Assembly (NCBI GenBank): GCA_022711115.1
Contig: JAKLFP010000010.1
Location: forward strand, 14,330-78,329
Length of the DNA: 64,000 bases
From: Candidatus Omnitrophota bacterium
Lineage (GTDB): Bacteria > Omnitrophota > Omnitrophia > Omnitrophales > Aquincolibacteriaceae
Reading direction: 5' to 3'
Each line of letters begins with the position of its first letter. Positions within the stretch are counted from its first letter, which is position 1. A program made the translations under genes and the position numbers. Under the pieces are notes generated by a model, which was given only the letters and a program-made list of their open reading frames with translations, ran no database searches and was not told the DNA's origin. Below, piece after piece: positions 43,692 through 57,208 of the stretch.

Positions 43692-46157
43692 ATGACAAAC
43701 ATCATGCATGTTTTTGAACTCAACTTCTATGCCGTGCCCCTTGTCGTGGTCGGGCTTCTGATGTTTCTGACCGGGCTTTACATTTTTCTCCACAACAAAC
43801 ACTCCCGCGCGAACTTCTCCTTTTTCCTGATCTGCCTTTGCGGTCTTTTTTGGTTTTTCGGAAATGCCGCGACCTATTCGGCGCGCACGCCGGAAGCCGC
43901 GCTCGCTTTTTACAGGGCGGTCACGTTTTTGGGCGTGGCCCTGATCGCGCCCTGTGTTTATTATTTTTCCGCAAGCTGGTTGAATCTTTTTGATAAGCAA
44001 AAGGCCGGCGTGCGGACCGCGCTTTTCTTGGGGGCTGCTTTTTATATTGTAGGGCTTTTTTCTCCAAGAAGTTTCCCCGGCGTCCGGCATTATTTTTGGG
44101 GCTACTATCCGGTCTATGGGCCGCTGAATTACTATTTTCTCGGCTATTTTTATCTGGTGCTGGCCAATGCGTTCTATAATTTTTTCAGGGCCTATTTCAA
44201 AGAACCGCGGGGTGTTCGCCGTACCCAGATCCGATTGATCACGCTCAGCTTTGTGGTGGCCTTTTTCAGCTCGCTTGATTATCTGCCGAAGCTGCTCTCT
44301 TATCCGGTTTATCCGCTGGGTTTTCTCCTCGTCTTTTTGTGGATCCTGATCGTGGCCTACGCCATCATCAAATACAGGGCCATGGATATCGAAACCGTGG
44401 TCCACAAGACCTTGATGTGGCTGGCCACCTCGGCGGTGGCGGTGGTGCCGTTCCTGGCAGTGATCTACGGGTTTGAAAAGATCCGGAATCCTTCCTCGAA
44501 CTTGCTTTCGACACTTTATTATTTTACGGTTTCGATCGCTTTTTATTTTTATTTCCGGGCCATCCAGCCGCGGCTGGACCATTGGTTCCAGCGCCGGCGC
44601 ACGAACCTGCTGGCGATTCTTGAGCAATTCTCCAAGGAGCTCGTGCATTTGAAGAACCTGCGCGACCTTCTGCAAAACTTCGCCCGCATGCTCCGGAACA
44701 AACTTTTTGTCCGCAGGCTTTCGGTCTACCTGTTGGATGAGAAAAAAGGGGAGTTTGTTCCCGCGATCGCCAAGGGGCTGCGCAGCTTAAAACCCTTTCC
44801 CAAGGGGCATCCCTTTTTTTCGTGGCTCGAGAAAACGGATGCCGTGGTGGTTGGGGAACTTGTGCTGGCGGATCCCTCCGTCGAAACGTTCAAAAAAGAA
44901 TTAGAAGATTATTTTCAGGCAACCCAATCCTTTTTAAGCGTGCCCTTTGTGCTCGGCGGGAAATTGATCGCCCTAGCGAACCTCGGCAAAAAAGCAAATC
45001 TGCGCCGGTATGGTTTTGAAGAAGTCCAATTTTTCGCCAAACTGAAAGCGCCGCTTACCATTGCCTTTTCGAATTCCATGCAGTTTGAGAATATTTCCGA
45101 ACTTTACAACCAGGTCCGCAAGATGAGCGAAGAACTGAAGCAATGGAACATCGAGCTGGAACAGCGCGTGGAAGATCGGACGCGCGAGTTGGTGAAAACC
45201 CAGGACCAGCTAGTGCAGGCCGAAAAACTCGCGACGCTCGGCACGCTTGCCGGCGGCGTGGCGCATGAGATCAACAATCCCTTGACGGCAGTTCTGACCA
45301 ACGCGCAGATCCTCAAAATGACGGCGGACGAAGATGTCCGGGAATCGCTGGACCTGATCGAGGAGGGCGCGAAGCGGTGCCAGCAGATCGTCCAAAAGCT
45401 CATGAAATACGCGCGTAAGACCGCGGAAGAGGCGCCGCACAAGGAAGTGGATCTGAATGAAGTGGTGCAAGGGACGTGCGCGCTTCTGGGGTTTCAATTT
45501 CAGCAAGAGAATATCGAGATTGAGACCAAGCTGGGCCAGATCCGCCGCGTGATGGGAATCGGCAATGAGCTGGAGCAGGTGCTTACGAACCTTCTTGTGA
45601 ACGCCCGGGATGCCATTAAGTCCAATCCTCAATCAAAAGATTTAAAGGTTAATGGGACTAGTCCTGGCAACCTTCAGTCAGAAGAAGATAGATGCCAGGG
45701 CAAATCCCATTCTCCATCAAAAGATTTAAAGGTTAATGGGACTAGTCCTGGCAACCTTCAGTCAGAAGAAGATAGATGCCAGGGCAAATCCCATTCTCCA
45801 TCAAAAGATTTAAAGGTTAATGGGACTAGCCCTGGCAACCTTCAGTCAGAAGAAGATAGATGCCAGGGCAAGTCTGCAAGAAGCCAAGGCCGGATTGTGG
45901 TCGAAACCCGCGGGAAGGGAGCCATGGTGGAACTTGTGGTCACGGACAACGGCATCGGTATTCCCAAAGGAAACCTCAAAAAGATCTTCGATCCCTTTTT
46001 TACGACCAAAGAGGTCGGTTCCGGTACTGGGTTGGGGCTTGCGGTCAGTTACGGCATCCTGAAGCGGCATAATGCTTCCGTGAGCGTTGATTCTTCGCCC
46101 GGCAAAGGTACTACCTTTGTGCTTTGCTTTCCCCGAAAGCAACAAGGTGAATCATGA
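43692..46157 (+). CDS. sensor histidine kinase (7TM N-terminal sensor, GAF-like, HisKA, HATPase_c) carrying an in-frame 3x28-aa repeat insertion
   Basis: 7 TM helices N-terminally; H-box [13 protein letters not shown]; N-box [10 protein letters not shown]; G-boxes DNGIGIP and GSGTGLGL. Three copies of [28 protein letters not shown] lie between the N box and G1 box. Confidence 0.85.
45633..45884 (+). repeat. 3 x 84-bp near-perfect in-frame tandem repeat inside the kinase ATP-binding domain
   Basis: Units start at about 45633, 45717 and 45801. A single T/C difference (actagtcct vs actagccct) separates copy 3 from copies 1-2. Confidence 0.9.
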
Positions 46158-46199
46158 AATGTCCTAGTGTTCAATTGGGATTTCATGTCCAATTCGCCA

Positions 46200-46255
46200 T
46201 TAAAAATTCAAAGGTTAATTGGACTAGCCCTGGTGACCTTCAGTTAGATGAAAAA
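46200..46255 (+). repeat. diverged partial copy of the 84-bp repeat unit in the intergenic region
   Basis: caaaggttaattggactagccctggtgaccttcagttagatg aligns to the intragenic unit aaaggttaatgggactagtcctggcaaccttcagtcagaag at about 80 percent identity. Confidence 0.6.
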
Positions 46256-46319
46256 AAACAGGGGCATAACACTACCTTCACGCTCCGGTTTCCTGCGGCT
46301 CATTCATCCACCCAAAAGT

Positions 46320-47807
46320 ATGAATCCGTATAATTTTTCCATTTTGTGCTTTGGTTTTTGTTCCCTCCTCTTGGGACTTTTTGTCTGGCTCAAACGGCAG
46401 GATCGTGTCGGCCAATTGTATTTTGTGTTGTCTTTTTTTTATGCTGGTTGGGCGCTGCCATTTTCTATAAAAATCAGTGATAATATTTCCTATGCTGCGG
46501 CGTTATACGCAGCACGCATGGCGAATTGTTCCGCGGCATTTATCCCAACTGTTTGGCTTCATTTTTGTTTGGTTTATACCAAAAGAGATGAAACCCATAA
46601 AAAAATACTTAAACTTTTTTACGCAATACCGCTGCTCATTCTTGCTGTTTCTTTTACACCGTGGTTTGTCCCGGGGCTCAGACCTATTCTCAGTTTTAGA
46701 CACTATGCAACCCCGGGTATTTTTTATTATTTGATGACATTGAATTATTTTATAGTTATTCCGCTGGGCTTTAACCAGTTATTTGACAAGATGAAAGAGG
46801 TTTCAAGAGAAGAAAGGGAACAACTTTTAGGACTTTTTTTCTCGGCCTTTATTGGCTATTTGGGAGGCGCCTTAACTTTTTTGCCGATCTATGGCATTTC
46901 ATTCCCTCAAGAAGGTATGTTTCTGTTGCCGATTTATCCCTTTGCTCTGACGTACTTTATGATTAAGCAGAAGATCTTCGACATCGAGGAGTTGGCCCAG
47001 GCGGCTCATCGGGACAAGTTAACAGCGATCGGGGTTTTGGCGGCGAGCATCAATCATGAGATCAAAAATCCGCTTTTTATTATCAAGGGACTCGCGGAGA
47101 ATTGTCTGGAGCGGCAAAAGGAAGGTGTTTTTTCCAATAAAGAAAAAGCCCTGGAGAGCGCCAACGACGCGATGAAAAGGAGCGTCGAGCAAGCGGACCG
47201 GGCGATGGATATCATCCGTAGGTTGTCGCTTTTTGCCAAGGCCGGGATCGACAGTGAGATCAAATTCGAGTTTGTGAAGATCGCGGAAGTGCTTGAAAAT
47301 ATTTTGCCGCTGATCCGTTATGAACTAGCAGCGAAAAATATCGTACTGACCCGTGACATTCCGCCCAATATTCCCGAAGTCCGCGCGGACCGGCGTTATC
47401 TTGAGGAGATTCTTTTCAACCTGCTAGTGAATGCCTGCCAGGCTGTCAGGGAAACCGGACGGGAAGGGGAGATCAAAGTGACCGCGGCCGTCATTGCGAG
47501 GGAACGAAGCGACCGAAGCAATCTCCCAATTCCGGACCTTAATAAAACGGGATCGCTGCGGCCCAAAAATGGCCTCGTGATGACAACTCCTGACAAGGTC
47601 CTTATCACGATCCAGGACAACGGCCCCGGGATCCCTGAAGATAAAATCAAAGACGTTTTCCGCCCCTTTTACACCACCAAAGCCGAGGGCACCGGTCTAG
47701 GTCTTTACATCACCAAACAGCTTGTTGAAAAAATCGGTGGACGGATATCTGTTGAGTCCCAGCAAGGCATTGGCACGACTTTTAAAGTTATCCTGAAGGC
47801 AGCCTGA
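46320..47807 (+). CDS. sensor histidine kinase (7TM N-terminal sensor, HisKA, HATPase_c), paralog
   Basis: Start set at MNPYNFSILCFGF by analogy with the next paralog. H-box LAASINHEIKNPL; G-boxes DNGPGIP and GTGLGLYI. Confidence 0.85.
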   Translation: MNPYNFSILCFGFCSLLLGLFVWLKRQDRVGQLYFVLSFFYAGWALPFSIKISDNISYAAALYAARMANCSAAFIPTVWLHFCLVYTKRDETHKKILKLFYAIPLLILAVSFTPWFVPGLRPILSFRHYATPGIFYYLMTLNYFIVIPLGFNQLFDKMKEVSREEREQLLGLFFSAFIGYLGGALTFLPIYGISFPQEGMFLLPIYPFALTYFMIKQKIFDIEELAQAAHRDKLTAIGVLAASINHEIKNPLFIIKGLAENCLERQKEGVFSNKEKALESANDAMKRSVEQADRAMDIIRRLSLFAKAGIDSEIKFEFVKIAEVLENILPLIRYELAAKNIVLTRDIPPNIPEVRADRRYLEEILFNLLVNACQAVRETGREGEIKVTAAVIARERSDRSNLPIPDLNKTGSLRPKNGLVMTTPDKVLITIQDNGPGIPEDKIKDVFRPFYTTKAEGTGLGLYITKQLVEKIGGRISVESQQGIGTTFKVILKAA

Positions 47808-47810
47808 GCC

Positions 47811-49187
47811 ATGAATCCGTATAACTTCTCAGTCCTGTGTTTCGGTTTTTGCAGTTTGCTTCTCGGAATTTTCGTTTGGCTTAAGCGGCAAGATTATGTT
47901 GGGCGACTTTATTTTGCTTTATCCTTTTTTTATGCTGGTTGGGCAATTTTTATATCGATTAATCTTAATAATGACATTTCGCCGGACCTCGGTCTTCTTA
48001 TGGGGCGATTAGGGAATGGCTTTGCTATTTTTATTTCCATTATTTGGTATCATTTTGTTTTGGTTTATACAGGATTTATTGAAAAACATTACAAGTTGGT
48101 GAAGTTTTTTTACATCATCTCGATACTAACATTTTGTTTTGTGTTTTCACCTTGGTTTATTCCAAAGACAGCAACTATAGTTGGTTTTAAGCATTACTCG
48201 CAAGCTGGACCAATCCATTATTTTTTTTCATTCTTATTTTTCATTCTAGTCACACTAAGTTTTATTGAATTGCACCGGAAAATAAAGAACTCTTTCGGAT
48301 ATGAAAGAGCGCAATTCAAAGGACTTTTTTGGACAGCCCTTTTGGGGTATCTCGGAGGGAGTCCGGCTTTTCTTCCGATTTATGGGATTCCCATGCCCCA
48401 ATATTGTCTCTTTTTAATGCCCCTTTATCCATTCATGTTGGCTTACTTCATGACCAAACAAAAACTCTTCGATGTGGCGGAATTGGCCCAAGCGGCGCAT
48501 AGGGATAAACTTTCGGCAATTGGTTTATTGGCAGCCAGTATAAATCACGAGGTCAAAAATCCATTATTTGTCATTAAAGGCATGACAGAAACACAGTTGG
48601 AACGTTTGCATGACCCGACGCAGTCAACAGAAAAGTTAAGAGAAATGCTAGAAAAAACCCTTCAGCAGGCGGATCGGGCGCTTGGAATTATTCGAAGCTT
48701 TTCTGAGTATGCAAAAAGGCAAAGCTCGCGAACATTCGATAAACAAATGCTCGATATTCGAGAAGTTATTGACAATATTATTCCGTTTGTGCGCAGCGAG
48801 TTGGCTTTGGACTCTATTCACCTAGAGTTGAATATACCGGCAAAAACCATGATCTGTGCGGACCAGCAATCCATGGAAGAAATCTTTCTGAATTTAATCG
48901 TGAATGCCTGCCAGGCGATAAAAAGCACTAATAAAACGGGTGAGATTGAGATTTCATCAGAGAAAGAAGATCCGTGGATCAGGATTGCAGTGCGAGATAC
49001 CGGGCCGGGATTGTCACAGGATCAGCTTTCAAGGATCTTTGAGCCATTTTACACAACAAAAGTATCAGGGACAGGCCTTGGACTTTATGTGGTCAAGCAG
49101 CTTGTCGAGAAAAATCAAGGCAGGATTGAGGTAGTTTCAAAGATCGGCGTTGGGACCACCTTTACCCTTATCTTTTCGCAACACTAG
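47811..49187 (+). CDS. sensor histidine kinase (7TM N-terminal sensor, HisKA, HATPase_c), tandem paralog
   Basis: MNPYNFSVLCFGFCSLLLGIFVWLKRQ is almost identical to the N-terminus of the preceding gene. H-box LAASINHEVKNPL. Noticeably lower GC than the upstream paralog. Confidence 0.85.
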   Translation: MNPYNFSVLCFGFCSLLLGIFVWLKRQDYVGRLYFALSFFYAGWAIFISINLNNDISPDLGLLMGRLGNGFAIFISIIWYHFVLVYTGFIEKHYKLVKFFYIISILTFCFVFSPWFIPKTATIVGFKHYSQAGPIHYFFSFLFFILVTLSFIELHRKIKNSFGYERAQFKGLFWTALLGYLGGSPAFLPIYGIPMPQYCLFLMPLYPFMLAYFMTKQKLFDVAELAQAAHRDKLSAIGLLAASINHEVKNPLFVIKGMTETQLERLHDPTQSTEKLREMLEKTLQQADRALGIIRSFSEYAKRQSSRTFDKQMLDIREVIDNIIPFVRSELALDSIHLELNIPAKTMICADQQSMEEIFLNLIVNACQAIKSTNKTGEIEISSEKEDPWIRIAVRDTGPGLSQDQLSRIFEPFYTTKVSGTGLGLYVVKQLVEKNQGRIEVVSKIGVGTTFTLIFSQH

Positions 49188-49352
49188 TTAATTCAATGGG
49201 TTATAGGACTTTTCTTTAAGGGATGGCTCTATTTAGCCGATATAACACTAGTGAGTTTTGTTTAATTTGGTGTGCTGACGATACAATCAACAAGAGAAGT
49301 TATTTAACATTTCGTTTAAAAAACCTTTGATAAATTACAATTTAAAAACAAT

Positions 49353-50180
49353 ATGTTGTTCGAAAATATGAAAACAGCCATAGAGGATTTTTTTTATAAA
49401 AAAGTTATTCGCAATATATTAATGCTCAGCAATTTTGGGCGACGTAGCGTTTTAGGAGAAGCTGCTTCGGGTTATAATTTTGACTATATGTATGAAAATA
49501 AACCGCACGGTTTTTTAGGAATAGGATATTTAATTGATAAAATGTTGCTTAATTTACCAGCTGTTCAAGCAACCAGACTCCGGCGTGTAAATATTGTCAA
49601 AATTGTAAGCAACGAGATCGAAAACCATAGGTTACAAGGAAAAACAACGAAAATTTTAGATTTAGCATGTGGCGCAGGCCGATATCTGTCAGATATTGTA
49701 AAGATTTTTTCCAAGAATAAGATAGAGATTGTAGGAATTGATTACGATAATAAATCATTAAAATTAGCTAAAAATCTCAGTGAAAAAGAAGGTATCTCAA
49801 AGGAACAAATCAGATTTGTTAAAGGGAATGTCTTTAGGCTGAGTATTCTAAAAAAATTGGGAAAACGAGTTGATTGGCGACCTAACATTGTTATTGCATC
49901 AGGGCTGACCGTTTATATTGATGATGATGAAGTGATAAATATGCTAAAACAAATTTATGAAGGGTTAGCTCACGATGGATGCATATTAATCGATAGCCAG
50001 GAAAGCAATCCAAGTCGCAAGTTGATGGAAAAGGTTTTAAAGACCAAGCAAGGAGCTTGGATTCTTTACTATAGGTCTCCAGCACAATGGCGGCATTGGT
50101 TACATAAATGTGGGTTCAGAGATATCGTTATTAGTTGTGATCAATGGAAAATGTACAACCTATGTTCAGCGCGAAAATGA
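49353..50180 (+). CDS. class I SAM-dependent methyltransferase
   Basis: Motif I ILDLACGAGRYL plus downstream acidic and IASG motifs. Low-GC gene. Confidence 0.7.
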   Translation: MLFENMKTAIEDFFYKKVIRNILMLSNFGRRSVLGEAASGYNFDYMYENKPHGFLGIGYLIDKMLLNLPAVQATRLRRVNIVKIVSNEIENHRLQGKTTKILDLACGAGRYLSDIVKIFSKNKIEIVGIDYDNKSLKLAKNLSEKEGISKEQIRFVKGNVFRLSILKKLGKRVDWRPNIVIASGLTVYIDDDEVINMLKQIYEGLAHDGCILIDSQESNPSRKLMEKVLKTKQGAWILYYRSPAQWRHWLHKCGFRDIVISCDQWKMYNLCSARK

Positions 50181-50554
50181 TGGCAGTATCAAAACCAACA
50201 ATTTTATTAATAGATGATGATCAATTGGTGTTGCGCTCCTTGGCAAAAGCCTTGGAAAAGGCTGGTTATAATGTGTTAGCAGTAGATGGGTACGATACAG
50301 CGATGGCTGCCATTCATGATAAAAATTTTGACTTAGTTTTGTCGGATATTCGTATGCCAGGAAAGAACGGTGTTGATACTGCGAAAGAAATCCAAGATAG
50401 TTTAATTGCAAATGGTAAGAAAGATTTACCGATTATATTTATAACGGGCTATAGTGGCGATGAAGAAAAGTTGCAGACGCCTTTATTGGGAGAAACATTA
50501 TACAAACCTGTAGATATAAATCGTTTACTAACTATAATTCGGGATTATCTATGA
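50177..50554 (+). CDS. single-domain response regulator (CheY-like receiver)
   Basis: ILLIDDDQLVLRSL...LVLSDIRMPGKNG...K. Start moved to the ATG overlapping the methyltransferase stop (ATGA). Confidence 0.8.
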   Translation: MMAVSKPTILLIDDDQLVLRSLAKALEKAGYNVLAVDGYDTAMAAIHDKNFDLVLSDIRMPGKNGVDTAKEIQDSLIANGKKDLPIIFITGYSGDEEKLQTPLLGETLYKPVDINRLLTIIRDYL

Positions 50555-51798
50555 AAAATCGGGTTGCTGTTACAGGAATAGGCATTGTGAGTCCCATCGG
50601 AATTGGGATTGATAATTTTTGGAAGGCGACAATTTCTGGTGAATCTGGAGCAGGAGAAATTACATTATTTGACGCGTGTAATTATGCTACAAAAATTGCG
50701 GCAGAAGTGAAGAATTTTAATCCAGCGGACTTTATGCTTCCGGAAGTTTACAGAAAAACTGATAGGTTTGCTCAATTTGGAGTTGCTGCTGCAAAAATGG
50801 CTATTGAGGAATCAAGATTAGAAGGAGCTTATGATCTGCAACAGAATCGCATACCAGTTATTATTGGCTCAGGGTTAGGTGGAAGTTTATTTCATGAGGA
50901 ACAAATTTTTCAATTGATTGGGACTCAAGAGCCAAAAAAAGTGCTTTCGAGCTCTGTTCCCCGAATTACTCCAAATGCCGTATCAGCGTTTATTGCCATG
51001 CAATATAAATTTCGCGGAACTAATTTGACTATTTCAACGGCATGTTCTTCAGCAGGGAATGCGATTGCCTTGGCTGCCCAACAGATTGAAAATGGAAAAA
51101 CGGATATTGTGATTACAGGGGGAGTAGAATGTCCCATAACCCCCTTTACTTATGCAGCCTATCAATCTCTTCGGGTATTATCAAAGGGCTTACAAGGGGC
51201 CAAGAAGGCGTCTCGGCCGTTTGATAAAAAAAGAGATGGCTTTGTGTTAGGAGAAGGTGCTGGCATTTTAGTGTTGGAGAACTATGAAAAAGCGTGTTCA
51301 AGAAAAGCTATTATTCATGCCGAACTAAAAGGTTATGGAAGTAATTGTGGCGCTTTTCATATGGCTGCACCTGATCCTAGTGGAGCAGATGCAGCCGCAG
51401 TTATGCGTGAAGCTATAATGCATGCTGGGATTTCAACAGTAGAAATTGACTATATTAATGCACATGGGACAGCTACTCAAGCGAATGATGTATGTGAAGC
51501 AAAAGCTATTAATATGGTTTTTGAAGAAGGTGGGAAAAAACCTTTTGTTAGTAGCACAAAATCTCAAATAGGTCATACGATAGGAGGTGCAGGAGCAATA
51601 GGTGCTATTGCGGCTATTTTGGCTGTCAAAAATGATATTATTCCTCCTAATATTAATTGTGATGAGTTAGATGACCAATGCAATATTAATGTGGTTCAAG
51701 AAAAAGCGTTGCACGCTCGTACGATCAATGCCATTTCAAATTCTTTTGGTTTCGGATCTAATAATACGGCCTTAGTTTTTGGAAAAGCGGAATACTAA
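50551..51798 (+). CDS. beta-ketoacyl-ACP synthase II-like condensing enzyme (KAS, FabF/FabB type)
   Basis: Active-site TACSS Cys, plus His motifs NAHGTAT and GHTIGGAGA; 415 aa. Confidence 0.88.
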   Translation: MKNRVAVTGIGIVSPIGIGIDNFWKATISGESGAGEITLFDACNYATKIAAEVKNFNPADFMLPEVYRKTDRFAQFGVAAAKMAIEESRLEGAYDLQQNRIPVIIGSGLGGSLFHEEQIFQLIGTQEPKKVLSSSVPRITPNAVSAFIAMQYKFRGTNLTISTACSSAGNAIALAAQQIENGKTDIVITGGVECPITPFTYAAYQSLRVLSKGLQGAKKASRPFDKKRDGFVLGEGAGILVLENYEKACSRKAIIHAELKGYGSNCGAFHMAAPDPSGADAAAVMREAIMHAGISTVEIDYINAHGTATQANDVCEAKAINMVFEEGGKKPFVSSTKSQIGHTIGGAGAIGAIAAILAVKNDIIPPNINCDELDDQCNINVVQEKALHARTINAISNSFGFGSNNTALVFGKAEY

Positions 51799-51826
51799 AA
51801 TCATGAATGTGAAGGGAGTTACGATT

Positions 51827-52108
51827 ATGACGGATTCACTGCAAAGAAAAGAAATTTTACAAAGACTGGAAAAAATTTTTAGTAACCTTTTGCGATCAAT
51901 GCAGGAAAAAGATCTTAAAAAGCGTCCTATTATTTCTTTTGATACTGACATAGCAAAGGATCTTTCAATTGATTCTGTAGAAACACTCGATTTACTCAAT
52001 AGCATAGAAGAGGAATTTGAAGTGAGTCCTGATTTACATGTAGCTAACACAAAGCGGAAAGTCGGCCAGATTGTTGATTACATAATAGAATTGCAAGAGC
52101 AAAAATAA
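51827..52108 (+). CDS. acyl carrier protein (dedicated, ACP-like)
   Basis: DLSIDSVETLDLLNSIEEEF phosphopantetheine-attachment Ser in a DSxE context. Start chosen at the ATG preceded by a GAAGGGAG RBS. Confidence 0.7.
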   Translation: MTDSLQRKEILQRLEKIFSNLLRSMQEKDLKKRPIISFDTDIAKDLSIDSVETLDLLNSIEEEFEVSPDLHVANTKRKVGQIVDYIIELQEQK

Positions 52109-52131
52109 ATTTTGTTAAATGAGAAAATAAA

Positions 52132-52911
52132 ATGGCTATTAATAAAAAAGTTGAAGAAGAGAATAAGATTTGGATATTAGAAATCGATAATCCTCCGATG
52201 AATAATTTAAATCCTGTTGTGGTCGACGGACTTAGTCGAGAAATTAAAAGTTTTAATGAAGATGCTGTCGCTCGTTCAATGGTCATAACAGGGGCTGGTG
52301 AAAGAGTGTTTATCGGTGGGGTAGCGATTGAGGAGATTAGGAAAATAAAGTCTTCAGATCAAGGGATGATTCTAGCGAAAAAAGGACAAGAATTATGTAA
52401 TCAGATAGAAAATTCCGAAAAACCTATTATTGCAGCTGTAAATGCCCTGTGCATTGGTGGAGGGACAGAAATCCTTTTGGCTTGCCATCTCCGTGTGGCT
52501 TCCGAGAAAACAAAATTTGGTCAACCAGAAATTGCGATGGGTTTTATGCCTGGTTTTGGTGGGACTCAACGATTGCCACGTGTAGTTGGAATTTCACAAG
52601 CGCGTCGCCTTATTTTATTGGGGGAAACTATCGACGCTCAAGAAGCATATCGAATAGGGTTAATTGATTTTCTTGTTTCTAAAGAAAAACTGCTATCAAC
52701 AGCTATGAATCTGGCCAAAAAAATAGCTGAAAAAGGACCAATAAGCATTTTAATGGCACAGCGCTCTATTCAAAAAGGCTATCAAATGAATTTAAAAGAC
52801 GGTCTTGATTTGGAACTGAAGTTATTCGGAGAGCTTTGCAAAACTGAAGACATGAAAGAAGGATTACAGTCTTTTATTGATCATCGAAAAGCTATTTTTA
52901 AGGGACGATAA
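52132..52911 (+). CDS. enoyl-CoA hydratase/isomerase (crotonase) family protein
   Basis: Crotonase oxyanion-hole region ALCIGGGTEILLACHLRVA and FGQPEIAMGFMPGFGGTQRL; 259 aa. Confidence 0.85.
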   Translation: MAINKKVEEENKIWILEIDNPPMNNLNPVVVDGLSREIKSFNEDAVARSMVITGAGERVFIGGVAIEEIRKIKSSDQGMILAKKGQELCNQIENSEKPIIAAVNALCIGGGTEILLACHLRVASEKTKFGQPEIAMGFMPGFGGTQRLPRVVGISQARRLILLGETIDAQEAYRIGLIDFLVSKEKLLSTAMNLAKKIAEKGPISILMAQRSIQKGYQMNLKDGLDLELKLFGELCKTEDMKEGLQSFIDHRKAIFKGR

Positions 52912-52917
52912 AATCTG

Positions 52918-53541
52918 ATGATAAGTGGAGTAATCTGCTTTGGTGATAGTATTTTAGCTGGGACAGGAGCATCATTTCGCGATAAAGGATGTGCCAAGCT
53001 ATTGAAGGCAAGATTAAAAATACCAGTCTCTTTGAAAGGAATTAATCGTAATACCAGCCAAGATGGTTTAATTCGCTTACAGCAAGATGTGCTAGACCAG
53101 AAGAATTTATCTCATGTGATAATCCTTTTTGGGAATAATGATTGTCGTTTTGTAGATTCTAACCGCTTTTCTGTTTCCCAAGATCATTTTATTGAAAATC
53201 TCAAAGAAATGGCCGCTAGCATTAAACGCAACCATCAAATCCCCATGTTTTGTAATTTACAGCCAATAGATTTTCCAATGCTATTTCAATTCATGCCGGA
53301 AGTTCAAAAAATTTATAGTGAAAACAAAATAAACCCCGAAGAACTTCAAGGGACATATAGTGATTTGATTGAAAATTTTGCTAAGAAGAGCGCCGAAATC
53401 TTAATCGATATTAGAACTCCATTAAAATGTAAAAAAAATGAAATTTTGGCAAAAGATGGACTGCATCCCAATGATTATGGCCATGAGATAATTGCGCAAA
53501 AGATTTTCGCTGAATTAAAAAAATACGATTCTACAATTTAA
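52918..53541 (+). CDS. SGNH/GDSL hydrolase (TesA-like thioesterase/lipase family)
   Basis: N-terminal block I ICFGDSILAG (catalytic Ser) and C-terminal DGLHPN block (catalytic Asp/His); 207 aa. Confidence 0.75.
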   Translation: MISGVICFGDSILAGTGASFRDKGCAKLLKARLKIPVSLKGINRNTSQDGLIRLQQDVLDQKNLSHVIILFGNNDCRFVDSNRFSVSQDHFIENLKEMAASIKRNHQIPMFCNLQPIDFPMLFQFMPEVQKIYSENKINPEELQGTYSDLIENFAKKSAEILIDIRTPLKCKKNEILAKDGLHPNDYGHEIIAQKIFAELKKYDSTI

Positions 53542-53577
53542 CTTTTGATTTATAACGAAACTCAGGAAAGCATCTCA

Positions 53578-55875
53578 ATGGCATTCTATATCCTGATAAC
53601 GGGACTTATTACCGCATCATATGCAGGCCTGGGCCTTTTCGTTTTTTTAAATGATCGAAGGAAATTTCTTTTTCGAATTTTTTTGTTATTTTGTTTGTCC
53701 GTCGCCTTATGGGCGTTTGGATATTTTATAACTCTCTTATCTCATATTACTTATCCAGTCGCAATTTTATCTAGCCGTATTTCGCATGCCATTGGGGCTT
53801 TTATTCCGATTACCTTTTTGCACTTTGTCTTGTCGTTTCTTCGCATTGATACTAATCATCGCCGACTTTTGCAAAACGGTTATATTGTATCCACAATTAT
53901 GTTCGGCATTGCACTAACACCATATGTGGTAAGCGATGTGGTGCAAAAGATGGATATTCGATTTTATCCCGAAAAAGGGTTATTTTATCCAATATATGCG
54001 GCGCTTTATTTGGTTTATGCGCTTGGATTTGCTCAGTTTTATCTATTTAAATCTTTTTTGAGCGCTACCGGAATTAATAAAAAGCGACTTCTTTTCTTTA
54101 TAGTTTCAACATTTGTAGGTTTTATCGGTGGTGTTTCGCTTTTCTTGCTAATATTTAATATTCCTGTTCCTCCTTATGCTAGTTCACTTATTGTAATTTG
54201 GCCATTTGCAATGGCGTATACGATTATTAAATATCGCGAATTTAATATAGAAGTTATTATTAAAAGGACATTGGTTTTTACTGGAGTTTTTGGTTCAATC
54301 ATTGGCATTGTTGCTATTGTGACAACACTTGCTCAAAATTATTTGGGGCAATATCTTGGTATAGGGCTGTTGGCGCGACAGATTTTTAGTGTTTTGATTG
54401 CCATCTTGCTTTTTGATCCGATTCGAAAACTGCTGATTAATCTCACGGACAAATACCTTTTTCAGAAAAAGTACGACTACCACAAGCTGCTCAAGGACGC
54501 GTCGCGGGGGATGTCGAACATCGAGAGCCTGGAGCGGTTGCTGGGTCTGGTCGTGCACTTCGTGACCATGAAGATGCGCGTGAAGAACGCGGCGGTGTTG
54601 ATGCGGGAAGGGGGCATGGATCAGTTTCATCTGGTGTATCAGCGCGGGTACGATAAAAAACACGTTGCCCTGACGCTCTACAGTAATGACCCGCTGATCC
54701 ATTACCTGGAGAATCATCAGGAGGCCGTGGACATCGAAAGGGTGAAAGAACAAGTCGAATCCGCCTCCCACCAGCGCGACAGAAGCGAGGTCGCGTATGA
54801 TTATGAAGCGATTCGCGAACGGATGATCCAGTTGCAGGCCAGCTGTTGCGTGCCGAGTTTTTTGGGCAAGGAGCTCAAGAATGTTCTTCTGCTCGGCGAA
54901 AAAAAATCCGGCGAATATTATTCCAACGAAGACCTGAATCTGCTTTACACGCTGGCGCAGGAATCCGCGATTGCGATCGAGAATGCCTGGCTTTATGATG
55001 AGGCCAAGAAAAAATCCCGAGAACTCGAACACATCAATGAGCAATTGGAACATTCCAAAACGCTTTTGATGAAAGCCTTGCAAGAAGCCGAAGGCGCGAA
55101 CAAACAGCTTCAGGACACACAGGCACAGTTGATCCACGAGCAGAAAATGGCGACCCTGGGCCGTCTGGCCGCGTCCGTGGGGCATGAAGTCAACAACCCA
55201 CTGACCATTCTGTCCATGAACGTGTCGCGCGTGATCCTCAAGTACCGGAAAAACCCGGATATGAAAGTGATCGAGATCCTGGATGTTTTTGACAAGATGG
55301 AAAAAAATATCGAGCGCATCAAAGCCGTGGTGAACACACTGACCGGGCTCCTCAAGAAATCCGAAAAAGGAAAATTCGAACCGCTGTCGCTCAAGCTGAT
55401 CCTGGAAGAAACCCTGCCGCTCGTGCAGTTCCAGACCTATCTGGACAATCTTTCGGGCACGGAAGTGGATTTCAACGTGCCGGGCAATATCCCGCTTATT
55501 CGCGGCGATCTGGAGCGTTTGCAGGAGGTATTTCTCAATCTTTTCATCAATGCCTATCATGCCATGGCCGGGAAGCGGCACCGCAAGATCGCGGTGGCTG
55601 CCGAGATCGACCCGCAGGACTCAAAGATGGTGGCGATCCATTTCAGGGACAACGGTTCGGGCATGACCGAAGATGTCATCAAAAAGGTCTTCAATTACGG
55701 TTTCACCACCAAACCGCTAGGCAAAGGATCAGGGCTCGGCCTGTATATGTGCAAGTACATCATTGAGCTTCACGGCGGGACGATTGTGGTGCAAAGCAAA
55801 GTCGGGGAGGGGACGACGTTCACGCTGACGCTGCCGATCTACGAGGAGTCTCCGGCGCTGAAGGCGCGAAGCTAG
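53578..55875 (+). CDS. sensor histidine kinase (7TM N-terminal sensor, GAF-like, HisKA, HATPase_c); compositionally chimeric
   Basis: ATG at 53578 with an AGGAAAG RBS; the ORF-track start at 53545 is a TTG. H-box LAASVGHEVNNPL; G-boxes DNGSGM and GSGLGLYM. GC jumps from about 35 to about 60 percent near nt 54450. Confidence 0.85.
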   Translation: MAFYILITGLITASYAGLGLFVFLNDRRKFLFRIFLLFCLSVALWAFGYFITLLSHITYPVAILSSRISHAIGAFIPITFLHFVLSFLRIDTNHRRLLQNGYIVSTIMFGIALTPYVVSDVVQKMDIRFYPEKGLFYPIYAALYLVYALGFAQFYLFKSFLSATGINKKRLLFFIVSTFVGFIGGVSLFLLIFNIPVPPYASSLIVIWPFAMAYTIIKYREFNIEVIIKRTLVFTGVFGSIIGIVAIVTTLAQNYLGQYLGIGLLARQIFSVLIAILLFDPIRKLLINLTDKYLFQKKYDYHKLLKDASRGMSNIESLERLLGLVVHFVTMKMRVKNAAVLMREGGMDQFHLVYQRGYDKKHVALTLYSNDPLIHYLENHQEAVDIERVKEQVESASHQRDRSEVAYDYEAIRERMIQLQASCCVPSFLGKELKNVLLLGEKKSGEYYSNEDLNLLYTLAQESAIAIENAWLYDEAKKKSRELEHINEQLEHSKTLLMKALQEAEGANKQLQDTQAQLIHEQKMATLGRLAASVGHEVNNPLTILSMNVSRVILKYRKNPDMKVIEILDVFDKMEKNIERIKAVVNTLTGLLKKSEKGKFEPLSLKLILEETLPLVQFQTYLDNLSGTEVDFNVPGNIPLIRGDLERLQEVFLNLFINAYHAMAGKRHRKIAVAAEIDPQDSKMVAIHFRDNGSGMTEDVIKKVFNYGFTTKPLGKGSGLGLYMCKYIIELHGGTIVVQSKVGEGTTFTLTLPIYEESPALKARS

Positions 55876-56096: not shown

Positions 56097-56104
56097 AGTA
56101 ACCT

Positions 56105-56386
56105 ATGTCAAAAAAAGGTTATGTTTATATTTTATCGAACTCTTCCAATACAGTTTTATATACCGGGGTAACATCAGATCTTTGGGCGCGAGTGGGTGAG
56201 CATAAACAAAAGTTAGTGAAGGGATTCACAAAACGGTATAATGTTACTAAGCTTGTCTGGTTTGAAGAATTTGGATCGATTCATGAGGCAATTGCGTCAG
56301 AAAAGAAAATAAAAGCAGGATCCAGAGCTAAAAAAATAAAATTGATTAAAACTCTGAATCCTGAATTTAGAGATTTAGCATTATAG
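56105..56386 (+). CDS. small GIY-YIG nuclease-domain protein (YhbQ/UPF0213-like)
   Basis: KGYVYIL...LYTGVT...FTKRYNVTKLVWFEEF is a GIY-YIG core; 93 aa. Confidence 0.8.
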   Translation: MSKKGYVYILSNSSNTVLYTGVTSDLWARVGEHKQKLVKGFTKRYNVTKLVWFEEFGSIHEAIASEKKIKAGSRAKKIKLIKTLNPEFRDLAL

Positions 56387-56390
56387 TTTT

Positions 56391-56479: not shown

Positions 56480-56836
56480 ATGAAAAAAATACTGATTGTG
56501 GATGATGAAGTCGGGATCGTGCAGGAGATCAAGGAATTCCTGACCGAAGAAGGCTATGACGCTTATACGGCGGATACAGCCAAGGAAGGGATCCGTCTGA
56601 TCCAGGAATTGAAACCGGATGTGGTTTTTATTGATGTGAAACTGCCGGATGCGTCCGGGATCGACGTGCTGAAGGCGTGTAAGGAAGAGTCTCCCAGAAC
56701 CAAGACCGTCATGGTGACGGGCTATGTGGATCAGAATTTGATGGATGAGGCCGAAGCGGTCGGGCGTGACGCGTTTCTTCAAAAACCTTTTGACCTTGTC
56801 CGCATCACCGAAGAAATCGAACGGTTGCTTGGCTAG
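56480..56836 (+). CDS. single-domain response regulator (CheY-like receiver)
   Basis: ILIVDDEVGIV...VVFIDVKLPDASG...K; 118 aa. Confidence 0.85.
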   Translation: MKKILIVDDEVGIVQEIKEFLTEEGYDAYTADTAKEGIRLIQELKPDVVFIDVKLPDASGIDVLKACKEESPRTKTVMVTGYVDQNLMDEAEAVGRDAFLQKPFDLVRITEEIERLLG

Positions 56837-56929
56837 ACTATAGGCCATCACTATAGACTGGAGACGGCAGACTGAGGCATGTCATCGCGAGCGAAGCGTG
56901 GCGATCTCCTGGCTATCGAAGTCGGTAAA

Positions 56930-57208
56930 ATGAAAAAAGGTTATGTCTATATTTTAGCAACTCCCTCCAACAAAGTTCTTTATACGGGCGTTACCGCAGA
57001 TCTTTGGGATAGGGTGACTCAACATAAAGACAAAACGGTCGAAGGGTTCACAAAACGTTACAACGTTACCAAATTGGTTTATTTTGAAGAATTCACATCC
57101 ATCATGGATGCGATCTCAGCGGAGAAAAAAATAAAAGCTGGATCCAGAGCTAAAAAAATAGAGTTGATTAAAACATTGAATCCTGCATTTAAGGATCTAG
57201 CGCAATAA
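56930..57208 (+). CDS. small GIY-YIG nuclease-domain protein (YhbQ/UPF0213-like), paralog
   Basis: MKKGYVYILATPSNKVLYTGVTADLW...FTKRYNVTKLVYFEEF. Start moved to the internal ATG to match its paralog. Confidence 0.8.
   Translation: MKKGYVYILATPSNKVLYTGVTADLWDRVTQHKDKTVEGFTKRYNVTKLVYFEEFTSIMDAISAEKKIKAGSRAKKIELIKTLNPAFKDLAQ

What the first reader, a model, noticed from the sequence alone, without database searches (positions are those of the whole stretch)
43692..55875. Four paralogous orphan 7TM-sensor histidine kinases within 12 kb, partnered only by single-domain receivers
The genes at 43692, 46320, 47811 and 53578 all begin with the same kind of about 300-aa seven-helix sensor domain. Two of them share an almost identical N-terminus, MNPYNFS(I/V)LCFGFCSLLLG(L/I)FVWLKRQD. 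All end in HisKA plus HATPase_c, and two also carry a GAF-like segment. No DNA-binding response regulator is encoded nearby. The only receivers are stand-alone CheY-like proteins (50177-50554, 56480-56836). This looks like a locally amplified family of lipid- or membrane-facing sensors feeding a phosphorelay or a CheY-like output. Its interleaving with lipid-metabolic genes (AAR fusion, KAS cassette) is non-random enough to suggest a functional link.
Basis: partly seen in the sequence, partly recalled or inferred. Interest (0 to 1): 0.55.

Follow-up and report, generated by a model that had tools for sequence, protein, structure and literature searches.

The report
Swappable lipid-enzyme cassettes with matched sensors
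The four membrane sensor kinases are real, but they are old, conserved parts of a locus found across the uncultivated phylum Omnitrophota, in which a block of fatty-acid enzymes, a small phospho-receiver and the membrane sensor of one kinase are exchanged together as a unit, suggesting that the sensor detects what the enzymes make.

Summary
Four + strand genes (43692, 46320, 47811, 53578) encode HisKA_7TM–HisKA–HATPase_c kinases, two with a confirmed GAF domain. The only receivers nearby are single-domain.

The genes are not a recent local amplification. Each has a positional orthologue in other Candidatus Omnitrophota genomes that is closer than any paralogue in the window. They are also not orphans. 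In about 60 species the frame is AAR-like – HK1 – (0–8 short kinases) – RR1 – variable enzymes – HK4 – RR2 – RmlC – MMPL, and minimal loci read HK1–RR1–HK4–RR2.

Two new points stand out:
- RR1, the enzyme cassette and the 7TM part of HK4 form one low-GC replaceable module. HK4's cytoplasmic part is 82–100% identical between relatives, but its sensor only 15–45%. Sensor similarity follows cassette type (permutation p ≤ 0.0002), not core similarity.
- At the RR1 position, other species fuse the receiver to KAS, PlsC-type acyltransferase, aldehyde dehydrogenase, HMG-CoA reductase or an α/β-hydrolase.

Best model (inferred, not shown): the cassette makes a fatty-acid-derived product, HK4's sensor is its matched receptor, and RR1 gates the enzyme by phosphorylation. 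The pattern resembles comQXPA and agr pherotype loci and the Ralstonia phcBSRQ operon.

The parts
41998..43581 (+). SRPBCC (Polyketide_cyc) domain fused to an acyl-ACP-reductase-like domain; conserved left neighbour of HK1
   Evidence: Pfam. NCBIfam TIGR04058 scores 168 bits, below its cut-off of 449.7, and the protein also resembles the N-terminal part of PigE. It is present upstream of HK1 in most orthologous loci.
43692..46157 (+). HK1: 7TM - GAF - HisKA - HATPase_c kinase, part of the conserved frame
   Evidence: Pfam; GAF confirmed. Orthologues L004_HKa and L005_HKa are 55-85% identical along the whole length. GC3 is uniformly high.
45621..45871 (+). In-frame tandem repeat of 3 x 84 bp inside HK1's HATPase_c, between the N and G1 boxes; copy number varies between samples
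   Evidence: TRF. L001 has 84 nt less and an HK1 of 789 aa instead of 821 aa.
46320..47807 (+). HK2: short 7TM - HisKA - HATPase_c kinase; conserved core joined to a divergent low-GC3 sensor
   Evidence: Pfam. Against L005_HKb the core is 75-93% identical and the sensor 33-57%. GC3 is 0.30-0.44 in the first 600 nt and 0.58-0.68 afterwards.
47490..47590 (+). In-frame insertion of about 100 bp in HK2's HATPase_c, with ends like the repeats that flank the GIY-YIG genes
   Evidence: GTCATTGCGAG...AAGCAATCTCC...CTCGTGATGAC.
47811..49187 (+). HK3: short 7TM - HisKA - HATPase_c kinase, starting 3 nt after the HK2 stop
   Evidence: Pfam. The AF2 model shows 7 TM helices, with TM7 leading almost directly into the DHp helix. 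Orthologues L004_HKb and L005_HKd are about 60% identical. GC3 is 0.42.
49353..50180 (+). SAM-dependent methyltransferase (Methyltransf_20), first gene of the low-GC module
   Evidence: Pfam 115 bits; GC3 0.30.
50177..50554 (+). RR1: stand-alone receiver overlapping the methyltransferase and the KAS by 4 nt each
   Evidence: Pfam; coordinates. The closest homologues (57-80% identity) are all stand-alone. In three of three contexts looked up, the homologue sits directly in front of, and overlaps, a KAS gene followed by ACP. Receivers at this position are fused to enzymes in other species.
50551..51798 (+). FabF-like beta-ketoacyl synthase
   Evidence: Pfam. NCBIfam fabF scores 464.5 bits against a cut-off of 493.75. 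GC3 0.26.
51803..52108 (+). Acyl carrier protein
   Evidence: PP-binding; gene call.
52132..52911 (+). Crotonase / enoyl-CoA hydratase family enzyme
   Evidence: ECH_1, 199 bits.
52918..53541 (+). GDSL/SGNH hydrolase, possibly an esterase or thioesterase
   Evidence: Lipase_GDSL_2. Weak similarity to TesA-type thioesterase I.
53578..54400 (+). HK4 sensor: 7TM module, low GC3, part of the replaceable module
   Evidence: It is 15-45% identical to orthologues whose cores are 82-100% identical. GC3 is 0.20-0.36. Nucleotide homology to L004, L005 and L008 resumes at 54256-54427. It is 80% identical to L016 and 57% to L026, which carry the same type of cassette.
54415..55875 (+). HK4 cytoplasmic part: GAF - HisKA - HATPase_c, highly conserved across Omnitrophota
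   Evidence: 60-92% identical in about 60 species, essentially one copy per genome. The DHp region is almost invariant in 62 orthologues. Synonymous-codon identity is like that of neighbouring genes, so the conservation reflects purifying selection.
56105..56386 (+). Small GIY-YIG gene with a 3' hairpin repeat, inserted between HK4 and RR2
   Evidence: Pfam; repeats; GC3 0.28.
56480..56836 (+). RR2: stand-alone receiver, conserved partner position after HK4
   Evidence: Pfam. It is 77-78% identical to the L004 and L005 copies. 61 receivers downstream of HK4 orthologues matched RR2 best, and most share the alpha1 motif DDE.GIV.E[IV]K.F..EEGY.
56879..57208 (+). Second GIY-YIG gene copy, 73% identical in nucleotides to the first
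57286..57822 (+). dTDP-4-dehydrorhamnose 3,5-epimerase, conserved right-hand frame
58922..61270 (+). MMPL / HAE3-type RND transporter with a sterol-sensing-like domain, conserved right-hand frame

Best explanation
The region is one copy of a locus conserved across Candidatus Omnitrophota.

**Conserved frame.** SRPBCC/AAR-like reductase, HK1, the cytoplasmic GAF-kinase part of HK4, RR2, RmlC and an MMPL transporter.

**Replaceable module.** This is a compositionally distinct block inside the frame. It consists of the stand-alone receiver RR1, a cassette of fatty-acid or thioester enzymes, and the seven-helix membrane sensor of HK4. In this window the cassette is methyltransferase, KAS, ACP, crotonase and GDSL hydrolase. 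The short kinases HK2 and HK3 are optional extra inputs placed between HK1 and RR1.

**Proposed mechanism.**
- Inferred: the cassette makes a hydrophobic fatty-acid-derived product.
- Inferred from co-inheritance: the HK4 sensor is embedded in the membrane and joins the kinase helices through a GAF domain. It is the matched receptor for that product and signals through the invariant HK4 core to RR2.
- Inferred from adjacency in minimal loci and from the conserved alpha1 helix of RR1: HK1, and probably HK2 and HK3, phosphorylate RR1.
- Inferred from fusions: RR1 binds the neighbouring enzyme (here the KAS and/or the methyltransferase) and switches it by phosphorylation, with no transcription step.

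The data do not decide whether the product is a diffusible signal (as with comQXPA, phc or DSF) or a membrane lipid under homeostatic control (as with DesK).
For: **Shown.**
- The domain architectures are confirmed.
- Synteny holds in L004-L006 and in about 60 species from the GTDB scan. Minimal loci read AAR-HK1-REC-HK4-REC.
- Receivers fall into two positional classes, each with its own alpha1 motif. Kinases fall into three DHp classes.
- HK4 orthologues show a median pairwise identity of 0.26 in the sensor and 0.70 in the core, with correlation 0.13. HK1 orthologues do not show this split.
- Sensor similarity follows the type of upstream cassette. Same-type pairs average 0.385 (maximum 0.82). 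Different-type pairs average 0.261 (maximum 0.38). Label permutation gives p <= 0.0002. Core identity does not differ between the two groups (0.709 against 0.709, p = 0.51).
- HK4 sensor GC3 is lower than core GC3 in 41 of 44 species (0.44 against 0.63). Cassette genes and RR1 are 0.14-0.28 lower in GC3 than frame genes; the same is seen in the window.
- In close relatives whose flanks are 85-92% identical in nucleotides, homology stops just upstream of RR1 and resumes at about residue 230-255 of HK4. In the window it resumes at 54256-54427.
- Receivers at the RR1 position are fused to KAS, PF01553 acyltransferase, aldehyde dehydrogenase, HMG-CoA reductase or an alpha/beta-hydrolase.
- The REC-KAS architecture occurs in 57 clusters from independent assemblies. 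Related KAS proteins are fused to PilZ or SRPBCC domains instead.
- RR1 overlaps its upstream and downstream genes by 4 nt each. Its closest homologues lie in front of KAS-ACP in three of three contexts looked up.
- The AF2 model shows only short loops and TM7 leading into the DHp helix.

**Analogy from the literature.**
- In comQXPA the N-terminal membrane domain of ComP is variable, the cytoplasmic domain is conserved, ComA is the least variable protein, and some ComP proteins lack the membrane domain (PMC4008528).
- The phc operon combines a methyltransferase that makes methyl 3-hydroxymyristate, the sensor kinase PhcS, and receivers without a DNA-binding domain (PMC8578825).
Against: - No product, ligand, phosphotransfer or protein contact has been measured. 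Everything mechanistic is inferred from gene order, fusions and covariation.
- Co-inheritance of sensor and cassette could reflect physical linkage alone.
- Cassette categories were defined by me from gene content after I had already seen some of the most similar sensor pairs. Two categories (REC-h332 and REC-KAS-ACP) are heterogeneous in their sensors, with means of 0.33 and 0.25.
- The fused REC-KAS of L009 is only 35-37% identical to the window's RR1 and KAS. The fusion is analogous, not orthologous.
- Some HK4 orthologues have no 7TM domain at all, so the conserved core can work with another input or with none.
- The low GC3 of the module persists even though synonymous sites are near saturation between species. 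A single old transfer does not explain this.
- RR2 has no identified target.
Confidence: 0.5

Rival explanations
1. A recent local amplification produced four orphan lipid-facing kinases, which feed a phosphorelay or a CheY-like motor or adaptor output through the two single-domain receivers.
For: - Four paralogous HisKA_7TM kinases lie within 12 kb, and the only receivers nearby are single-domain.
- Tandem expansion of short kinases does occur in some lineages, with at least 8 copies in L006.
- Single-receiver proteins often act as relays or phosphate sinks (discussed in PMC8578825).
Against: - Each window kinase is closer to a positional orthologue in another species than to any paralogue in the window.
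- The HK2/HK3 N-terminal identity is a motif shared by the whole family, and its synonymous sites are saturated.
- In minimal loci the kinases sit next to receivers.
- No Hpt, CheA, CheW or MCP domain was found among the proteins scanned.
- RR1-type receivers are fused to enzymes.
Confidence: 0.1
2. Linkage without function. The segment between HK1 and the HK4 core is a recombination hotspot or flexible island. The HK4 sensor, RR1 and the enzymes travel together only because they are neighbours. The kinases sense something unrelated, such as envelope stress or membrane state, and the enzymes act independently of them.
For: - The module is low in GC3 in nearly all species, as flexible islands often are.
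- Mobile GIY-YIG genes and MITE-like repeats lie in and around the locus.
- Some cassette categories have heterogeneous sensors.
- Some HK4 orthologues lack the 7TM domain.
Against: - The right breakpoint falls repeatedly at the sensor/cytoplasm boundary inside HK4 rather than in the spacer in front of the gene.
- Within one cassette type the sensor stays 55-82% identical even where the cores are only 63-88% identical, so it is under constraint within a type.
- Receivers are fused to five different enzyme families at the same position.
- RR1 overlaps both of its enzyme-gene neighbours.
Confidence: 0.25
3. Assembly artefact. The jumps in composition and the mosaic genes come from chimeric metagenome contigs.
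For: The window comes from a metagenome. GC3 changes sharply inside two genes.
Against: - The same gene order and the same proteins are found in independent JGI, ENA and Logan assemblies.
- The same cassette and sensor occur in a different species, recovered both as a GTDB MAG and from an ENA assembly (L016 and L086).
- The reading frames are intact across the junctions.
- The same pattern recurs in 41 of 44 species.
Confidence: 0.02

Closest known systems
Bacillus subtilis comQXPA (and Staphylococcus agr) pherotype loci
   Same: - The signal-making gene or genes and the N-terminal multi-helix membrane sensor of the kinase are hypervariable and vary together.
- The cytoplasmic kinase part and the response regulator are conserved.
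- Some kinases lack the membrane domain (PMC4008528).
- Here the enzyme cassette and the HK4 7TM domain vary together, while the HK4 core and RR2 are conserved.
   Different: - The known systems use a modified peptide and a DNA-binding regulator (ComA, AgrA).
- Their polymorphism is seen within a species.
- Here the enzymes are of fatty-acid type, no peptide gene was seen, and both receivers lack an output domain.
- Variation is shown only between species or between relatives with about 90% nucleotide identity.
Ralstonia phcBSRQ quorum-sensing operon
   Same: One operon combines a SAM methyltransferase that makes a fatty-acid methyl ester signal, a membrane sensor kinase, and receiver proteins without a DNA-binding domain (PMC8578825).
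   Different: - Homology of the window methyltransferase to PhcB was not tested.
- PhcS is not known to me to be a HisKA_7TM kinase.
- PhcR carries a kinase domain.
- The phc operon has no dedicated KAS, ACP, crotonase or hydrolase genes.
DSF signalling (RpfF crotonase synthase, RpfC membrane kinase, RpfG REC-HD-GYP) in Xanthomonas
   Same: From general knowledge: a crotonase-family enzyme acting on acyl-ACP makes a diffusible fatty acid. A kinase with several membrane helices senses it. The receiver is attached to an enzyme rather than to a DNA-binding domain.
   Different: - RpfC is a hybrid kinase with its own receiver and Hpt domains.
- The enzymatic output there is a c-di-GMP phosphodiesterase, not a lipid enzyme.
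- No sequence comparison was made here.
DesK-DesR membrane-fluidity thermosensor of Bacillus subtilis
   Same: From general knowledge: the sensor consists only of membrane helices with minimal loops, joins directly to the kinase helices, and controls a lipid-modifying enzyme.
   Different: - DesK has five helices and a HisKA_3 DHp.
- It acts through the DNA-binding regulator DesR on transcription of the desaturase gene.
- Here the sensors have seven helices, the DHp is of HisKA type, and the control is probably post-translational.
Pfam HisKA_7TM (PF16927) sensor family
   Same: All four kinases pass the family's gathering score.
   Different: The family is listed only as a sensor domain with no known ligand, in censuses of archaeal two-component systems (PMC5847659 and PMC6944256). 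No solved structure matched better than a generic GPCR-like bundle.
Multi-kinase networks converging on a single-domain receiver (KinA-E to Spo0F; DivJ/PleC to DivK)
   Same: Several kinases are encoded with stand-alone receivers. The short kinases look like added inputs to RR1.
   Different: No Hpt protein or terminal transcription factor was found. The receiver class is fused to metabolic enzymes in relatives.

Membership tests
HisKA_7TM sensor histidine kinase (PF16927 + HisKA + HATPase_c) | N-terminal region matches PF16927 above the gathering score | tested here: met
   59.0, 61.0, 34.7 and 41.1 bits against a cut-off of 28.6
HisKA_7TM sensor histidine kinase (PF16927 + HisKA + HATPase_c) | Seven transmembrane helices | tested here: met
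   The AF2 model of HK3 residues 1-236 (pLDDT 90.2) has 7 helices plus one beta-hairpin. Not modelled for HK1, HK2 or HK4.
HisKA_7TM sensor histidine kinase (PF16927 + HisKA + HATPase_c) | Phospho-acceptor His box and the N, G1, F and G2 boxes are intact | tested here: met
   The motifs are readable in the translations. HATPase_c scores 82-90 bits in all four. HisKA is above its cut-off in HK1-3 and below it in HK4 (21.4 against 26.9). HK1 and HK2 carry in-frame insertions between the N and G1 boxes.
GAF-containing kinase | GAF fold between the sensor and the DHp in HK1 and HK4 | tested here: met
   A profile of the regions from orthologues hits GAF structures: 3o5y E 4e-8, 4mcw 7.6e-8, 5w10, DevS. 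Pfam alone was sub-threshold.
Orphan histidine kinase | No cognate receiver encoded next to the kinase | tested here: not met
   RR2 follows HK4 in the window, with a GIY-YIG gene inserted between them, and in nearly all orthologous loci. RR1 directly follows or overlaps HK1 in loci without short kinases.
Recent tandem paralogue amplification | The copies are each other's closest relatives | tested here: not met
   About 24 proteins from other organisms rank above HK2 in the HK3 search. Each window kinase groups with positional orthologues.
Phosphorelay (Spo0F/Spo0B type) | An Hpt or Spo0B-like phosphotransferase and a terminal output regulator in the system | tested here: not met
   No Hpt domain was seen in the proteins scanned with Pfam between 24.3 and 63 kb or in related loci. 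Window positions 1-24 kb and the rest of the genome were not scanned, so one encoded elsewhere is not excluded.
CheY-type chemotaxis receiver | Encoded together with CheA, CheW or MCP genes | tested here: not met
   None was seen among the neighbours scanned. No further kinase-like ORF was found in the window by phmmer.
Pherotype-type signalling locus (comQXPA / agr pattern) | The kinase sensor domain varies together with the adjacent synthesis genes, while the kinase core and the regulator stay conserved | tested here: met
Pherotype-type signalling locus (comQXPA / agr pattern) | Alternative types coexist within one species | tested here: inconclusive
   No pair of loci had 92-99% core nucleotide identity. 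The closest pairs with different modules share about 90-92%.
Pherotype-type signalling locus (comQXPA / agr pattern) | The adjacent genes make a secreted signal that the kinase senses | not testable with these tools
   This needs chemistry and kinase assays.
Response regulator with an enzymatic output | Receiver covalently joined to a catalytic domain | tested here: not met
   RR1 in the window is stand-alone, 125 aa. Receivers at the same position in L009, L044, L012, L017 and L036 are fused to KAS, acyltransferase, Aldedh, HMG-CoA_red or an alpha/beta-hydrolase. The window therefore may work like such a regulator but is not one.
Cyanobacterial acyl-ACP reductase (TIGR04058) | Score above the equivalog cut-off | tested here: not met
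   168 bits against a cut-off of 449.7. It is AAR-like only.

The most novel reading that the evidence does not exclude
Omnitrophota may carry a lipid-based analogue of peptide pherotype systems.

- Interchangeable cassettes would each make a different fatty-acid-derived signal.
- Each cassette travels with its own seven-helix receptor module, which plugs into an invariant kinase core (HK4) and receiver (RR2).
- Signal synthesis itself would be gated after translation by a phospho-receiver (RR1) that binds, or in some species is fused to, the synthesising enzyme.

If so, this would give the first candidate ligands for the HisKA_7TM sensor family. It would also define a new class of response-regulator outputs: KAS, PlsC-type acyltransferase, aldehyde dehydrogenase and HMG-CoA reductase.
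Probability: 0.25. Interest if true: 0.8.

Novelty: new variant of a known kind. Interest (0 to 1): 0.6.

Why it matters
- **A route to a ligand.** HisKA_7TM is a widespread sensor domain with no known ligand. Here the sensor varies together with a defined enzyme cassette, which points to a concrete class of candidate ligands that can be tested by expressing the cassette.
- **A direct route from signalling to lipid synthesis.** Receivers fused or coupled to KAS, acyltransferase, aldehyde dehydrogenase and HMG-CoA reductase suggest that a two-component system can control lipid or fatty-acid synthesis directly, without transcription. As far as I know, and as far as the papers I searched show, this is not an established class of regulator output.
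- **A feature of an uncultivated phylum.** The locus is conserved across Omnitrophota, which has no cultured representative, so it is probably important for their envelope or their cell-to-cell interactions.
- **Domain swapping inside a gene.** It is a clear natural case of a sensor module being replaced within a gene at the boundary between sensor and cytoplasmic domains.

Tried and rejected
- **Recent gene conversion between HK2 and HK3.** I tested this as an explanation for their shared N-terminus and rejected it. Only 37-46% of the codons for identical residues match, and the motif is found across the whole family.
- **Recent recombination as the cause of HK4 core conservation.** Rejected. 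Synonymous-codon identity in the core (0.52-0.56) is like that of RmlC, MMPL and RR2.
- **Promoter and terminator scan of 41.8-59 kb.** The counts were close to what shuffled sequence gives, so the scan was uninformative.
- **Intraspecific polymorphism.** I tested this by combining the genome and metagenome scans. No pair of loci fell in the 92-99% identity range, so the test was inconclusive.
- **Genome-wide census of HisKA_7TM kinases.** It could not be done because only the window and ±10 kb pieces of the 230 kb contig are accessible, and the species is not among the GTDB representatives recovered (best core identity 92%).
- **Phosphorelay idea.** No Hpt domain was found among the proteins scanned.
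- **Orthology of the REC-KAS fusion to the window's RR1 and KAS.** Rejected at 35-37% identity. The fusion counts as an analogous link only.

Full report
**1. What is in the window**

Between 41.9 and 61.3 kb all genes but one (the 143-aa ORF 57899-58330) lie on the + strand. Pfam and NCBIfam give this order:

| Coordinates | Gene |
|---|---|
| 41998-43581 | SRPBCC + acyl-ACP-reductase-like protein |
| 43692-46157 | HK1: HisKA_7TM, GAF-like, HisKA, HATPase_c |
| 46320-47807 | HK2 |
| 47811-49187 | HK3 |
| 49353-50180 | Methyltransf_20 methyltransferase |
| 50177-50554 | RR1, a receiver only |
| 50551-51798 | FabF-like KAS |
| 51803-52108 | ACP |
| 52132-52911 | crotonase |
| 52918-53541 | GDSL hydrolase |
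| 53578-55875 | HK4: HisKA_7TM, GAF-like, HisKA, HATPase_c |
| 56105-56386 | small GIY-YIG gene |
| 56480-56836 | RR2, a receiver only |
| 56879-57208 | second GIY-YIG gene |
| 57286-57822 | RmlC |
| 58922-61270 | MMPL/HAE3 transporter |

- RR1 overlaps both of its neighbours by 4 nt. From the methyltransferase to HK4 the gaps between genes are at most 36 nt.
- Homology searches with the four kinases and two receivers find no other kinase in the 64 kb. They find one more receiver-containing ORF at 26692-27429, next to pilin-like genes.

**2. Origin**

The same proteins occur on JGI, ENA and Logan assemblies. NCBI names them Candidatus Omnitrophota. The arrangement is not an assembly accident.

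**3. Not a recent amplification**

- HK3's best relatives (54-56% identity) come from other organisms. HK2, on the same contig, ranks about 25th at 48%.
- Neighbour-joining trees of the sensor and of the kinase core were built from the window and loci L004-L006. They place HK1 with L004_HKa and L005_HKa, HK2 with L005_HKb, HK3 with L004_HKb and L005_HKd, and HK4 with L004_HKc and L005_HKe.
- The near-identical N-termini of HK2 and HK3 share only 37-46% of codons at identical residues. The motif MNPYNFS.LCFGFCS begins nearly all of 48 sampled members of the family.
- The duplications are therefore old. Copy number does vary between lineages: L016/L086 has no short kinases, and L006 has at least eight.

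**4. A conserved locus, and kinases that are not orphans**

A scan of one genome per GTDB species with the HK4 cytoplasmic part returned orthologues at 60-92% identity from about 60 Omnitrophota species. There is essentially one per genome, and nothing above 39% identity outside the phylum.

I mapped all loci with the window proteins. The recurrent order is:

[h197 – h208 – AAR-like] – HK1 – (0-4 or more short kinases) – receiver – variable enzymes – HK4 – receiver – RmlC – h143 – MMPL

- Minimal loci (L035, L045-L047, L053) read AAR-HK1-REC-HK4-REC.
- Receivers fall into two positional classes:
  - After HK4, 61 receivers matched RR2 best, and most carry the motif DDE.GIV.E[IV]K.F..EEGY.
  - After HK1 or the short kinases, the RR1 class is more variable overall but keeps a recognisable alpha1 helix, DD[DE].[LI]L..[KR][ST].
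- Kinases fall into three DHp classes, each with its own conserved helix 1. The HK4 DHp is almost invariant in 62 sequences.
- I infer the pairings HK4-RR2 and HK1(+short kinases)-RR1 from position and conservation. They are not shown.

**5. The mosaic**

*In the window.*
- GC3 is 0.56-0.67 in the frame genes, 0.25-0.30 from the methyltransferase to the GDSL gene, and 0.42 in HK3.
- GC3 jumps inside HK2 after about 600 nt and inside HK4 after about 750-900 nt.
- HK4 residues 280-765 are 82-100% identical to L004_HKc and L005_HKe. Residues 1-270 are only 15-45% identical. HK1 is uniformly 55-85% identical to its orthologues.

*Across species.*
- In 44 HK4 orthologues, median pairwise identity is 0.26 for the sensor and 0.70 for the core, with correlation 0.13. 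HK1 orthologues show no such split.
- The sensor has lower GC3 than the core in 41 of 44 species. RR1 and all cassette genes are 0.14-0.28 below the frame genes.
- In close relatives (L008, L011, L013; flanks 85-92% identical in nucleotides), homology ends just upstream of RR1 and resumes at about residue 230-255 of HK4.
- In the window, homology to L004, L005 and L008 resumes at 54256-54427. L016/L086, which has the same cassette, is collinear from 49383 to 55848.

*Timing.* Synonymous-codon identity in the HK4 core equals that of RmlC, MMPL and RR2. The core is therefore held by purifying selection, and the exchanges are not recent.

**6. The sensor follows the cassette**

I grouped loci by the genes between RR1 and HK4.
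- Same-type pairs have mean sensor identity 0.385, up to 0.82.
- Different-type pairs have mean 0.261 and never exceed 0.38.
- Label permutation gives p ≤ 0.0002.
- Core identity is the same in both groups, 0.709 (p = 0.51).

The window's sensor is 80% identical to that of L016 and 57% to that of L026, which both carry a KAS-ACP-ECH-GDSL(+MT) cassette. It is 24-31% identical to the sensors of loci whose cores are 88-90% identical to the window's.

Caveat: I drew the categories from gene content after I had already seen some of the top pairs, and two categories are heterogeneous.

**7. RR1 and the enzymes**

At the RR1 position, Pfam confirms these fused proteins:

| Locus | Architecture |
|---|---|
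| L009 | REC-KAS |
| L044 | REC-acyltransferase (PF01553) |
| L012 | REC-aldehyde dehydrogenase |
| L017 | REC-HMG-CoA reductase |
| L036, L023, L040 | alpha/beta-hydrolase-REC (Pfam on L036; L023 and L040 share the architecture) |
| L005 | REC plus an unknown 390-aa domain |

- REC-KAS occurs in 57 clusters at 90% identity, drawn from NCBI, JGI, ENA and Logan. Neighbouring KAS relatives carry PilZ or SRPBCC domains instead.
- The window's RR1 and KAS are only 35-37% identical to the L009 fusion, so this is an analogous link and not an orthologous one.
- RR1's own close homologues are all stand-alone. In three of three contexts looked up, the homologue sits directly in front of, and overlaps, a KAS followed by ACP and a hydrolase or thioesterase, then an HK4-type kinase and RR2.

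**8. Sensor structure**

- The AF2 model of HK3 residues 1-236 (26-sequence alignment, pLDDT 90.2) gives seven helices, very short loops and one periplasmic beta-hairpin. TM7 is followed within a few residues by the helix that carries the phospho-acceptor His.
- There is no sizeable extracytoplasmic domain. This suits a ligand that sits in the membrane, or sensing of the membrane state.
- The PDB search gave only generic 7TM matches.
- The GAF domains of HK1 and HK4 are confirmed by a profile search against the PDB.

**9. Model and rivals**

The simplest reading of sections 4-8 is a two-part system.

- **Replaceable specificity module.** It consists of RR1, the enzymes and the HK4 sensor. The enzymes make a hydrophobic product, and the co-inherited sensor detects it. 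RR1 is phosphorylated by the conserved HK1 and the optional short kinases, and it switches the enzyme it contacts.
- **Conserved transmission part.** It consists of the HK4 GAF-kinase core and RR2, whose target is unknown.

This matches the evolutionary signature of pherotype loci. In comQXPA the ComP N-terminal membrane domain is variable, its cytoplasmic domain is conserved, ComA is the least variable protein, and some ComP proteins lack the membrane domain (PMC4008528). In gene content it resembles Ralstonia phcBSRQ, which combines a methyltransferase that makes a fatty-acid methyl ester, a sensor kinase, and receivers without a DNA-binding domain (PMC8578825).

A crotonase with a hydrolase and an ACP also recalls DSF synthesis. 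That comparison rests on my own knowledge and was not tested.

A homeostatic, DesK-like reading, in which the product is a membrane lipid, fits equally well, particularly for the cassettes that carry an acyltransferase.

The main rival is linkage without function. The evidence against it is the repeated breakpoint at the domain boundary, the conservation of the sensor within each cassette type, and the fusions.

**10. Known or new**

- HisKA_7TM is mentioned in the searched literature only as a sensor domain of unknown specificity.
- Nothing was found on Omnitrophota kinase arrays.
- Two-component systems, stand-alone receivers, tandem kinases and pherotype-style mosaics are all known kinds.
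- What I did not find described:
  - a fatty-acid-type cassette combined with a co-varying 7TM sensor;
  - receivers fused or coupled to KAS, PlsC-type acyltransferase, ALDH, HMGR or a hydrolase;
  - conservation of this arrangement across a whole phylum.
- I rate it a new variant of a known kind.

**11. Limits**

- Nothing functional was measured.
- The kinase count for the whole genome and polymorphism within a species could not be tested.
- Window positions 1-24 kb were not annotated with Pfam.

Noticed in passing
window 45621-45871: A tandem repeat of three 84-bp units (28 aa each, [28 protein letters not shown]) lies in frame inside HK1's ATPase domain, between the N and G1 boxes. Another sample's assembly (L001) has one unit fewer, so copy number is variable. 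A 35-nt partial copy lies at 46210-46244 in the HK1-HK2 spacer.
   Followed up: partly
window ~47490-47590: HK2 carries an in-frame insertion of about 100 bp at the same loop of its ATPase domain. The ends of the insertion (GTCATTGCGAG ... CTCGTGATGAC) resemble the inverted repeats found next to the GIY-YIG genes. It looks like a miniature mobile element tolerated within a coding sequence.
   Followed up: partly
window 55940-58540: Two small GIY-YIG genes (56105-56386 and 56879-57208; 73% identical in nucleotides, low GC3) each carry a 3' hairpin repeat, GAGATTGCCACGCCC...GGGCTCGCAATGAC, and they bracket RR2. Solo copies of the hairpin lie at 56058-56095 and 58485-58536. Similar GIY-YIG genes sit in or near the HK4-RR2 spacer in L005, L012 and L063.
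   Followed up: partly
window 57899-58330 (- strand): A 143-aa protein with a signal-peptide-like N-terminus and no Pfam match is conserved between RmlC and MMPL in most loci. It lies on the opposite strand here and in several other loci, compared with L004 (28% identity), which suggests local inversion or replacement.
   Followed up: partly
proteins P0313-P0333: KAS proteins related to the REC-KAS fusions carry a PilZ (c-di-GMP-binding) domain or an SRPBCC domain in place of the receiver. This KAS group has therefore been joined repeatedly to signalling or lipid-binding domains.
   Followed up: no
L006 13021-17097, L033, L034: In more distant Omnitrophota, the AAR-like gene is followed by a class III aminotransferase and a GNAT acetyltransferase, with a FadL/Toluene_X outer-membrane channel upstream. 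Reductase plus aminotransferase is a split version of the PigE arrangement, and it hints at fatty-amine-type products.
   Followed up: no
L028, L043, L045, L047-L049, L054, L056, L058, L064; also L034, L048, L052 (receiver hit) and L054, L058 (by length): Some HK4 orthologues have no 7TM domain and consist of GAF plus core only (500-600 aa). Some HK1 orthologues are much longer, about 1150-1180 aa. In L034, L048 and L052 they contain an internal receiver-domain hit, so they are hybrid kinases; L054 and L058 are of similar length but showed no receiver hit.
   Followed up: no
window 24304-27429: Four pilin-like genes with N-terminal methylation motifs are followed by a 245-aa protein with a C-terminal receiver domain and an unassigned N-terminal half. 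This is a separate signalling element, about 16 kb upstream of the kinases.
   Followed up: no
L065 and L074 (same MAG, CAYLXA01): One genome holds a second, divergent copy of the REC-methyltransferase-HK4-like-REC arrangement on another contig (28% core identity). The module architecture can therefore be duplicated within a genome.
   Followed up: no
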